Shown here: positions 39,787 to 42,352 of the stretch, in pieces | Numbering within the stretch: the stretch's first letter is position 1 | Layout of the letters: each line of letters starts with the position of its first letter | Source: Eledone cirrhosa | Taxonomy: Eukaryota | DNA: 64,000 bases | Direction: 5' to 3' | Assembly (NCBI GenBank): GCA_964016885.1 | Contig: OZ024753.1 | Span: 37,510,001-37,574,000 of the forward strand | Notes under the pieces: model-generated | The model's database searches: none | Seen by the model: only the letters and a program-made list of their open reading frames with translations | What the model was told of the DNA's origin: nothing | Program-made: the position numbers and the translations under genes

Positions 39787-39834
39787 AAAATGACCGGTTT
39801 CGATGGGTCTGCAAAAGCCATCTTTTCAAATGTT
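39787..39834 (-). ncRNA. Hammerhead, U3-A8 core variant
   Basis: Minus strand AACAT-TTGAAAA-GATGG...CCATC-GAAA-CCGGTC^ATTTT. Stem I has one mismatch. Confidence 0.65.
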
Positions 39835-42055
39835 GATTAATATTAAGAAAAATTAATAATACGAAGAGTTAAAATTTGAGATTTGAAAATTCAAGTATAA
39901 AATTCATTGTGGGATTTCATAGTAGTTTTCATCTAGGTAGCAACAACAAGTTGACTGCTGTGTCCCTTTCTGGTAGTGAATGAGAAGTTATTTGGGGTGT
40001 GGGTTATTTTATAAAGGTCAGATTTAGCAATGGCCAACTGGCCAGCTGCTGGTCAGTGAGGGGGTGGAAGCAATATACATACATATATCTTCCTGTGGTG
40101 GGTAGGAGAGTGGCCATTGCTAAATCTGACCTTTATAAAACCTCAATTCTCTCTCTCTCTCTCTCTCTCTCTCTCTATATATATATATATATATATATAT
40201 ATATATATATATATATATATATATATATATATATATATATATATATACATACATATATATATATACATATATATATATATACATATATATATATACATAT
40301 ATATATACATATATATATTGTTATATATATATATATATATATGTATATATATATATATATATATATATATATATATATATATATATATATATACATATAT
40401 ATATATACATATATATATATGCATATATATATATACATATATATATACATATATATATTGTTATCTCTGTTTACCTTGTACATATATATATATATATATA
40501 TATATATATATACATATACTTTCATGCATACTTACAAACATCATATATACATACATACATACATACATACATACATACATACATACATACATACATACAT
40601 ACTTACTTACTTACATACATACACACACACACACATACATACATACATACATACATACATACATACATACATACATACATACATACATACATACATACTT
40701 ACATACATACACACACACACACACATACATACATACATACATACATACATACATACATACATACATACATACATACATACATACATACATACATACATAC
40801 ATACATACATACATACATGTTATGGTCTCGCCGCTATTATCTTAATCAAGTTCTAAATCTCTCCTTAATGAAAGCCTGAATCAAAGGAATCTTCAGACAT
40901 TACTAACAAGCTTCAGATGATGGACATGTGACTTACAGACACGTGACACAATCATATCAGACATATCAAACATATGAACTTGAAATCGTTTTCTGTTGCC
41001 AACATTCGTGCTTCACTGAACTAATAAAGCAATTCAATGATAAACACTGCCGGTTCGTCACGGTTGATTTCGTTGTTTATCTTAAATTAATTACGGGAAA
41101 TAGTTTTTACGAAAACTTTTATGGTGTTTTTCTGTTATTGTTTTCTTATATTTGGGGGAGGGGGGGGGGGTCTATTTTTCCATTTTTTTTTTTTTTTTTG
41201 TAGCGGTGCTTTTACATTATCGATGATTTTTTTTTTTTTTTTTGCATCATGATGATGATGATGTCGTCGTAGACTGTTTTAAAAGTTATGAGTTCGTATT
41301 TCAGGCTGCCATTTTGTGTGTGTTTATATATATATATATATATATATATATGTGTGTGTGTGTGTGTGTGTGTGTGTGTGTATTGTAGCAATAATATGAT
41401 CACATAGCGATACTAAACGGATGTATTTTTTATACATAAACATATCGCATATACCTCAATATACAACCATTGACTGCTACTTCATTTTATCGACTCAAAG
41501 AATCAAAGAATCAAAAAATCAAAGGTTACCTTGACATCACCTTCATTGATTTGAACCAGAACAAATATCACAATCGCTTTTATCCGATGTTATATCAATC
41601 CTGCTAACACAACACCTTTAATGTCATAACTATATTAATAACTTATACAACACTTACGGCAATTAATATTACTGGCTACATATTCTCCTGGCTAGGAAGC
41701 GAAGATGCCCTTGAAACAGTCAGTGAATTTGGCAACGGTGAGTGGTTAAATACCTTTACACTTACAGCGTCAATATTATCATTTTTCAGCAAGATTAAAT
41801 GTGTGTTAAGCATGATGTTAGTGTAAACATTAAATATGCTTTCATAATCTGAACTCTTTAGTATCATACTGCGTGGCGTTTCATATTTCATATAATTGTT
41901 TCTACTTTTTCATATAATGATATGTGTATGAGTACGTGTATGTATGTATATATGTGTGTGTGTGTGTGTGTGTGTATATATATATATATATATATATATA
42001 AAATAATTAATTCAAATATGTAAAATTTGACTTCGTTTATTATAAATTAAAAATT

Positions 42056-42110
42056 ACTGCTATATATATTTCGATGACAGCCATCATAGGCTGTGACCTC
42101 TTCAGGCAGT
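42056..42110 (-). ncRNA. Type I hammerhead ribozyme, relative of 43110-43167
   Basis: Minus strand ACTGC-CTGAAGA-GGTCACAGCC tatgat GGCTGTCATC-GAAA-TATATATA^GCAGT. Compensatory T-A to C-G change in stem II. Confidence 0.88.
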
Positions 42111-42314
42111 TCGAATTGGTGTGGGAAAGACAGGTACACATGTTCTTGAGGTGTGTTTTACTCCGTCAATACATCGATATGTCCAGCTCCTGGGTGTGTT
42201 GTTATTCCTCCGAGGAACTGGAATCATATCTGGAATATATATATACACACACACACACATACATATATATATATATAGATGTGAGAAAAACCACAGAACC
42301 TCCATCTCAACTCA

Positions 42315-42352
42315 CCTTTTGAAAAGCAGAAGAACTGCGAAACCGGTAAAGG
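42315..42352 (+). ncRNA. Minimal hammerhead, U3-A8 core variant
   Basis: CCTT-TTGAAAA-GCAG aagaa CTGC-GAAA-CCGGTA^AAGG. All three stems pair, and stem III ACCGGT is palindromic. Confidence 0.8.

What the first reader, a model, noticed from the sequence alone, without database searches (positions are those of the whole stretch)
39787..42352. U3-A8 hammerhead core variant (TTGAAAA) in several independent families
Seen: 42315-42352 (+), 39787-39834 (-) and the 18420 family all read TTGAAAA in place of CTGANGA. They have different stems I and II but the same ACCGGT stem III. Established: positions 3 and 8 form a Watson-Crick pair in the active fold, and U3-A8 is a tolerated natural variant. The double change in unrelated contexts points to a selected sub-lineage rather than decay. 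The 7785 copy, by contrast, has only G8A.
Basis: partly seen in the sequence, partly recalled or inferred. Interest (0 to 1): 0.75.

Follow-up and report, generated by a model that had tools for sequence, protein, structure and literature searches.

The report
Swapped-core hammerhead in one Penelope clade
Three related jumping-gene families in this animal genome carry a small hammerhead RNA motif, predicted to cut itself when two copies pair up, with the same swapped core base pair, likely inherited from one ancestor and already described in such elements, so this is mostly a new, very abundant example of a known thing.

Summary
The motifs are real: five U3-A8 type I minimal hammerheads lie in the window, none in 200 shuffles. 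Genome-wide, with one descriptor, U3-A8 gives 23,702 matches and C3-G8 19,018; the single-mismatch classes give only 308 and 287. So the 3/8 pair covaries and this is not decay. The contexts are not unrelated, though. All three motifs sit in the 3' pseudo-LTRs of autonomous Neptune-type Penelope-like retroelements whose proteins are 54-57% identical and form one clade. The two nearest outside relatives with a motif keep C3-G8, so one inherited swap explains all three. U3-A8 is published, including in Penelope-like elements (Perreault 2011; Cervera and De la Pena 2014), and this scan noted it before on other DNA of this genome. The 18420 family (about 6,200 copies) also reads GCAA (A13C) and has a weak stem I. 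Family A copies begin far more often about 72 nt upstream of the cut site, 30 nt behind a TATA box, than at the cut, so much template RNA is likely uncut. Cleavage itself is untested.

The parts
42315..42352 (+). Family A minimal type I hammerhead, U3-A8 core, 4-bp stems I and II, palindromic ACCGGT; predicted cut after 42348
42277..42428 (+). Family A solo pseudo-LTR: starts at the family's common 5' end (72 nt before the cut), ends in (TA)n
39787..39834 (-). Family B minimal hammerhead, U3-A8 (U3 = 39829), 5-bp stem II, weak stem I; predicted cut between 39792 and 39791
39614..40821 (-). 5'-truncated family B element (3' UTR and pseudo-LTR)
   Evidence: blastn to L234
18420..18456 (+). Family C hammerhead-like motif, U3-A8 plus A13C (GCAA), 3-bp A-U stem I
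17430..18607 (+). Family C 3' piece, right arm of an inverted pair
16357..17432 (-). Family C 3' piece, left inverted arm, with its motif at 16600-16570
46683..46970 (-). Family C pseudo-LTR with motif at 46927-46897
46969..47135 (+). Inverted family C partner that begins about 4 nt after the predicted cut
7785..7840 (-). Copy of a different, canonical C3-G8 family (TATATA stem III) with a single G8A change; comparison only
43110..43167 (+). Canonical C3-G8 sibling of the 7785 copy; comparison only

Best explanation
These are minimal type I hammerhead motifs in the pseudo-LTRs of one clade of autonomous Neptune-type Penelope-like retroelements, whose common ancestor likely swapped the core pair C3-G8 to U3-A8 once, and they are predicted to cut slowly and only as dimers through the self-complementary ACCGGU. 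Shown: the motifs, their position about 0.9-1.3 kb behind a reverse transcriptase/GIY-YIG ORF, direct pseudo-LTR repeats around the ORFs in one tandem copy, the relatedness of the families, covariation of 3/8 at copy level and of the stems across families. Inferred: U3-A8 keeps the tertiary pair that positions the ribose of nucleotide 8. Two motifs (the two pseudo-LTRs of a tandem transcript, or two RNAs) form a 6-bp intermolecular stem III and cut each other after UA or UC, trimming the element RNA out of longer transcripts. Purifying selection acts on the master elements, while inserted copies decay neutrally. Cutting is likely inefficient: transcription probably starts about 72 nt upstream of the cut, and many cDNAs run through the uncut site to that start. 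Family C, with A13C added, is likely weaker still.
For: Class counts 23,702 UA / 19,018 CG / 308 CA / 287 UG, against reversed-pattern controls 219 / 335 / 175 / 156. GIY-YIG ORF ends lie upstream of A, B and C motifs; Pfam RVT_1 and GIY-YIG hit A, RVT_1 hits B and GIY-YIG hits C. The CX4CX2C linker matches the Neptune/Nematis Zn finger described in PMC8557442. A, B and C proteins are 54-57% identical to each other and 20-29% to other PLEs. Families D and E are sisters of B and C. The five U3-A8 rows form one side of a branch, SH-aLRT 99 (quick tree). Outside relatives L338 (44%) and L339 (40%) carry C3-G8, L339 with the same CCGG. C3-G8 with CCGG gives only 129 matches in this genome, below its control of 165. 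Stem I pair 2.2-1.2 is AU in 5 and UA in 3 of 8 representatives; stem II pairs change on both sides between families (by eye). The ACCGGU self-duplex is -8.3 kcal/mol. L236 has motif-ORF1-ORF2-motif in direct orientation. Dimer action and low activity of PLE hammerheads are published.
Against: No cleavage was measured, and no RNA holder or raw reads were available. In monomer folding, stems I+II of B and C score +0.4 kcal/mol, with stem I pair probability about 0-0.01. No sharp pile-up of 5' ends at the cut: 12 of 72 true junctions among the first 100 of 496 rows (counted by eye). A pairwise mutagenesis found low activity for doubles other than G3-C8. The tree is the quick one, with few taxa and partial rows, and I could not survey all Neptune families in this genome, so a C3-G8 family nested in the clade is not excluded. 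Outgroup motif labels for two rows were assigned by eye.
Confidence: 0.78

Rival explanations
1. U3-A8 arose independently and was selected in several unrelated families.
For: Stems I and II and most of the 3' UTRs do not align: blastn found only one 123-nt match at 72% between A and C, none between A and B, and 16 nt between B and C. Earlier notes report U3-A8 in retrozymes and in a Hydra-clade element of this genome (not tested here), and it occurs in Schistosoma Cercyon, so the swap probably recurs at larger scale.
Against: For the three families named, protein identity, the tree and the shared CCGG all point to one clade.
Confidence: 0.07
2. The motif no longer cuts in this clade. It is kept as an RNA pairing or recognition element (dimerisation through ACCGGU, binding of the element's protein), and U3-A8 and A13C were tolerated because catalysis no longer matters.
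For: Family C reached about 6,200 copies with A13C (98 of the first 100 rows) and has long open frames. 5' ends pile up upstream of the cut, not at it. Naiad elements spread without canonical hammerheads. Cervera and De la Pena leave functions other than cleavage open.
Against: U3, U4, G5, A6, A9, G12, A14, A15.1 and U16.1 are invariant across 8 representatives while position 7 varies, and position 17 is never G. This is the catalytic pattern. Single-mismatch family consensuses are essentially absent.
Confidence: 0.12
3. The swap is a near-neutral compensatory change driven by C-to-T and G-to-A mutation bias in an AT-rich genome, with no change in function, so nothing was selected for U3-A8 as such.
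For: Window GC is 19-39% per 2-kb bin; both changes are transitions toward A/T; a U3.G8 wobble is a plausible intermediate (inference). This is compatible with the best explanation and differs only on whether slower cutting is adaptive.
Against: None direct. The persistence of U3-A8 across families that are 45% diverged in protein shows purifying selection only.
Confidence: 0.45

Closest known systems
Minimal hammerheads in pseudo-LTRs of metazoan Penelope-like elements, including the U3-A8 variant of Schistosoma mansoni Cercyon (Cervera and De la Pena 2014, PMC4209133; parts 1-2 of 4 read)
   Same: Type I, short stems, position in the pseudo-LTR, mostly truncated single copies, inverted pairs, U3-A8 core (about 1,300 hits there), small palindromic stem III as in their Drosophila, rotifer, shrimp and mosquito variants.
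   Different: Here U3-A8 marks a whole Neptune-type clade with about 30,000 matching copies; most families lack the bulged base at 9.1; family C adds A13C; activity not assayed here.
Natural U3-A8 core covariation (Perreault et al. 2011, PMC3088659; passages and section 8 read)
   Same: Same double change, described as compensatory and previously active in vitro.
   Different: Those passages do not concern Penelope-like elements; A13C is not among the variants named in the section read.
Neptune clade of EN+ Penelope-like elements (as described in Craig et al. 2021, PMC8557442; passages read)
   Same: RT plus C-terminal GIY-YIG, Cys Zn-finger linker, insertion into (TA)n, tandem and inverted structures, two alternative 3' ends.
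   Different: Not placed against named Neptune or Nematis reference sequences here; an upstream ORF overlaps the RT frame.
Double (dimeric) hammerheads of amphibian retrozymes (PMC7229834, passages; Lunse et al. known only from reference lists and the review PMC6765202)
   Same: Unstable stem III replaced by an intermolecular helix.
   Different: These are autonomous elements with motifs about 4.8 kb apart, not 300-bp tandem units.

Membership tests
Type I minimal hammerhead | Core order N3-UGA-N-N8-A, stem II, GAAA, stem III, UH, closed by stem I | tested here: met
   A fully; B with a 2-bp stem I
Type I minimal hammerhead | Watson-Crick pair between positions 3 and 8 | tested here: met
   UA 23,702 and CG 19,018 versus CA 308 and UG 287
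Type I minimal hammerhead | G12-A13-A14-A15.1 intact | tested here: not met
   Met in A, B, D, E, G; not met in family C, which reads GCAA in 98 of the first 100 of 6,200
Type I minimal hammerhead | Compensatory changes in stems I and II | tested here: met
   Stem I: 2 of 3 pairs change on both sides (8 related rows, not a probability); stem II by eye
Type I minimal hammerhead | Palindromic stem III able to form a dimer helix | tested here: met
   ACCGGU invariant in 8 of 8 representatives; duplex -8.3 kcal/mol
Type I minimal hammerhead | Site-specific self-cleavage | not testable with these tools
   No raw RNA reads; genomic 5'-end footprint at the cut is weak
Type I minimal hammerhead | Rfam hammerhead model match | tested here: not met
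   No hammerhead family among the listed hits; these models carry the C3-G8 consensus and full stem III (recalled)
EN+ Penelope-like element | RT and C-terminal GIY-YIG in one frame upstream of the motif | tested here: met
EN+ Penelope-like element | Pseudo-LTR tandem and inverted 5'-truncated arrangements, microsatellite targets | tested here: met
   L236 tandem; many head-to-head pairs; ends in (TA)n
Neptune clade | CX2-5CxxC linker between RT and EN | tested here: met
   CGRSNCGTC, CGRTNCGTC, CDRPNCGIC; also shared with Nematis
Neptune clade | RT phylogeny with named Neptune references | not tested
   No reference set was on hand; the tree holds only session sequences
Non-LTR retrozyme | Non-coding short tandem units | tested here: not met
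   A, B and C have coding full-length copies

The most novel reading that the evidence does not exclude
The U3-A8 swap is a brake. This clade starts transcription about 72 nt upstream of its hammerhead, so a fast ribozyme would decap its own mRNA; U3-A8, weak stems and finally A13C tune cutting down. Family C would then be a thriving autonomous retroelement with a dead or near-dead ribozyme, possibly cut in trans by sister-family RNAs through the shared ACCGGU. This would give a natural series (C3-G8 outgroup, U3-A8, U3-A8 plus A13C) for testing what Penelope hammerheads are for.
Probability: 0.2. Interest if true: 0.6.

Novelty: new member of a known kind. Interest (0 to 1): 0.27.

Why it matters
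The variant itself is known, so the finding as stated adds an example. Its use lies elsewhere. Standard CUGANGA descriptors would miss about 30,000 motifs here, a whole clade. And the role of hammerheads in Penelope-like elements is still open; these young, intact families (many 775-aa open frames at 98-99% identity) with graded core defects and a defined 5' start offer a direct test of whether cleavage matters for transposition.

Tried and rejected
Rfam scans gave only microsatellite-driven miRNA hits and a chance MALAT1 hit at E 2.7. The repeat finder was swamped by (TA)n. A DNA search with the family C stretch returned nothing, as words common in this genome are skipped; a pattern was used instead. 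A census on 400 kb of unselected genome gave only 20 descriptor hits (16 printed), too few for family-level statistics. Sequencing runs: no RNA holder listed; four guessed-RNA runs covered only a 40-base AT-rich piece or nothing. Four other runs showed no variant at 3% or more inside the core and, in two runs of one study, a drop in depth near the -72 boundary, but they may be the source sample and are not counted as support. The metagenome scan gave 7 relatives, only 2 with a recognisable downstream motif; 3 end at or near the match and 2 show none. The careful tree did not finish. Lunse et al. and two RNA-journal papers on core mutants were not held, so their content is not used; that A13 changes harm cleavage is recalled, not read. 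Searches for a hammerhead A13C variant found nothing relevant (listings only), but paywalled papers and supplements, above all Lunse et al., could describe it. The 'CG' family with GAAACCGGTC (about half) probably folds with a different stem III and was not treated as a relative. Look-ups of earlier findings by sequence for families A and C were empty.

Full report
Observation. All motifs are at the stated places. Family A (42315-42352, +) has 4-bp stems I and II, core TTGAAAA, GAAA, CCGG and TA. Family B (39787-39834, -) has a 5-bp stem II and only 2 bp of stem I before a mismatch. Family C (18423 +, 16600 -, 46927 -) has the same core and ACCGGT but reads GCAA (A13C). The 7785 copy is a G8A point variant of a canonical family whose sibling at 43115 reads CTGATGA. 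Five window matches compare with none in 200 dinucleotide shuffles. The window is G000:C13:37510001-37574000 of a 3.0-Gb microsatellite-rich genome.

With the descriptor core-N{8,28}-GAAAC-SS-GT-H on both strands: U3-A8 23,702 (control 219), C3-G8 19,018 (control 335), C3-A8 308 (control 175), U3-G8 287 (control 156). The listed single-mismatch rows are largely point mutants of the U3-A8 families, with one small exception noted below. Family C adds 6,200 exact copies of a 32-mer, 98 of the first 100 with GCAA. Limits: counts are copies, not events. The descriptor covers only CCGG/CGCG-type stem III, so C3-G8 families with TATATA, CTAG and other loops are not counted, and U3-A8 cannot be called the genome majority. 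Most of the first 100 C3-G8 rows are 310-bp tandem arrays.

What carries the motifs. Longer copies show a GIY-YIG ORF ending 0.9-1.3 kb upstream of each motif. Family A has many intact 775-aa frames, 97-100% identical over the 223 residues queried (150 of 23,264 candidates scored). Pfam finds RVT_1 and GIY-YIG. A Cys linker of the Neptune/Nematis type is present (PMC8557442 passages). Copies end in (TA)n at two alternative points and often form head-to-head pairs. L236 holds motif, ORF1, RT-EN frame, motif in direct orientation, 4.8 kb apart. In L248, L251 and L252 the RT frame is instead preceded by an inverted pseudo-LTR.

One origin. A, B and C proteins are 54-57% identical to each other and 20-29% to other PLEs in the loci. 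Further U3-A8/CCGG families exist: D is sister to B and E to C by protein fragments; G and a GATTG-stem family had no ORF piece in the loci fetched. E keeps GAAA, so A13C is likely derived in C. In a quick tree of 15 rows the five U3-A8 rows are one side of a branch, SH-aLRT 99, with 8 of 500 label shuffles as low; the careful search did not finish and four rows are under half filled. Of 7 metagenome relatives, the 2 with a recognisable motif are C3-G8, one with the same CCGG. In this genome C3-G8 with CCGG gives 129 matches against a control of 165. So the shared ACCGGT and U3-A8 are best read as co-inherited. Against this: 3' UTRs barely align, and I could not list all Neptune families.

Selection. 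Across 8 representatives 15 columns are invariant, all in or next to the core and stem III, while position 7 varies. Stem I pair 2.2-1.2 is AU in 5 and UA in 3; 87.5% of cells pair, with 4 of 500 shuffles as high, which is not a probability for related rows. One representative is an A8C copy. Stem II changes on both sides between families (by eye; MAFFT misaligned it). This shows purifying selection on master elements; it does not show that U3-A8 was favoured over C3-G8.

Mechanism. Shown in print: C3-G8 pairs in the active fold (PMC3884650 passages); U3-A8 occurs naturally and had been active in vitro (PMC3088659 section 8); PLE hammerheads cut poorly and as dimers, and Cercyon has about 1,300 U3-A8 motifs (PMC4209133 parts 1-2 of 4; review PMC6765202 passages). 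Against easy tolerance: PMC9901934 passages report rescue only by G3-C8 in their construct. Computed here: ACCGGU self-duplex -8.3 kcal/mol; A folds into stems I and II (-6.4), while B and C do not as short monomers (+0.4). Inferred: two motifs pair through ACCGGU and cut each other slowly.

Genomic footprint. 37 of 127 family A pieces start 70-73 nt before the cut (loci picked for holding the motif), as do 9 of 28 pattern-picked central copies. The start lies 30 nt behind TATAAAA, so it is likely the transcription start (inference). Genome-wide, 672 copies have a junction exactly at -72. All junctions from -9 to +2 give 496 matches; of the first 100, 28 are indel or substitution variants of intact copies, 12 of the other 72 fall exactly at the cut, and 50 of the 72 fall between -2 and +2 (by eye). 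That is a mild excess near the cut, partly expected from chance matches in A/T flanks, and about ten times fewer per position than at -72. Family C starts cluster at -80 to -72 and at -121, the latter possibly an alignment break. Much template RNA is therefore likely uncut at its 5' hammerhead.

Novelty. The variant and its link to Penelope-like elements are in print, and earlier notes of this scan describe U3-A8 motifs elsewhere in this genome. I found no report of a natural A13C hammerhead in two searches (listings only), but Lunse et al. could not be read. Verdict: real, explained, a new member of a known kind; modest extra interest from family C and the 5'-end pattern. Interest 0.27.

Noticed in passing
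L236 (- strand 2431-5690), L054:2010, L228:3159, L312:2813: Full-length elements have an upstream ORF1 (455 aa stop to stop, no Pfam hit) that overlaps the RT frame. Families A, C and E conserve CATTTTTTAGAC there (14 places, 3 types). It reads as a U-UUU-UUA -1 slippery site in the ORF1 frame (motif recalled) or as a splice acceptor; no strong hairpin follows. PMC12602865 passages mention two non-overlapping ORFs in a fish Neptune.
   Followed up: partly
window 58486-60978 (+), partial copies 53284-54768 (+) and 51787-53502 (-): An 830-aa Penelope-like ORF of another clade (23-27% to A/B/C; Hydra-like by recalled motifs; no Pfam hit at 1e-3), in a large inverted/tandem structure, with a canonical C3-G8 hammerhead with about 115 nt of stem II and a 9-bp stem I at 58040-58192.
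   Followed up: partly
L109-L137 (e.g. G000:C1:1239857-1244284): 310-bp tandem arrays with C3-G8 hammerheads (CGCG stem III) in inverted two-armed insertions, retrozyme-like; they dominate the C3-G8 count.
   Followed up: no
G000:C1:114901674-114901698 and about 16 more of the first 100 rows: A small repeated family with a C3-A8 core and no proper stem II before GAAACCGGTA; one C3-G8 copy of it appears. It may be a decayed or differently folded relative.
   Followed up: no
L252 upstream of the motif; window 42277: TATAAAA lies 30 nt upstream of the common 5' end of family A copies, and a similar box precedes family C's cluster: a likely promoter inside the 3' UTR, which would explain why tandem copies are needed.
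   Followed up: partly
L259, L266, L319 and related loci: Families E and G open stem II with a U.U mismatch or bulge, a feature PMC3088659 section 8 reports as tolerated.
   Followed up: no
window 42056-42110 (-): A further canonical C3-G8 hammerhead related to the 7785/43115 family, with compensatory stem II changes.
   Followed up: no
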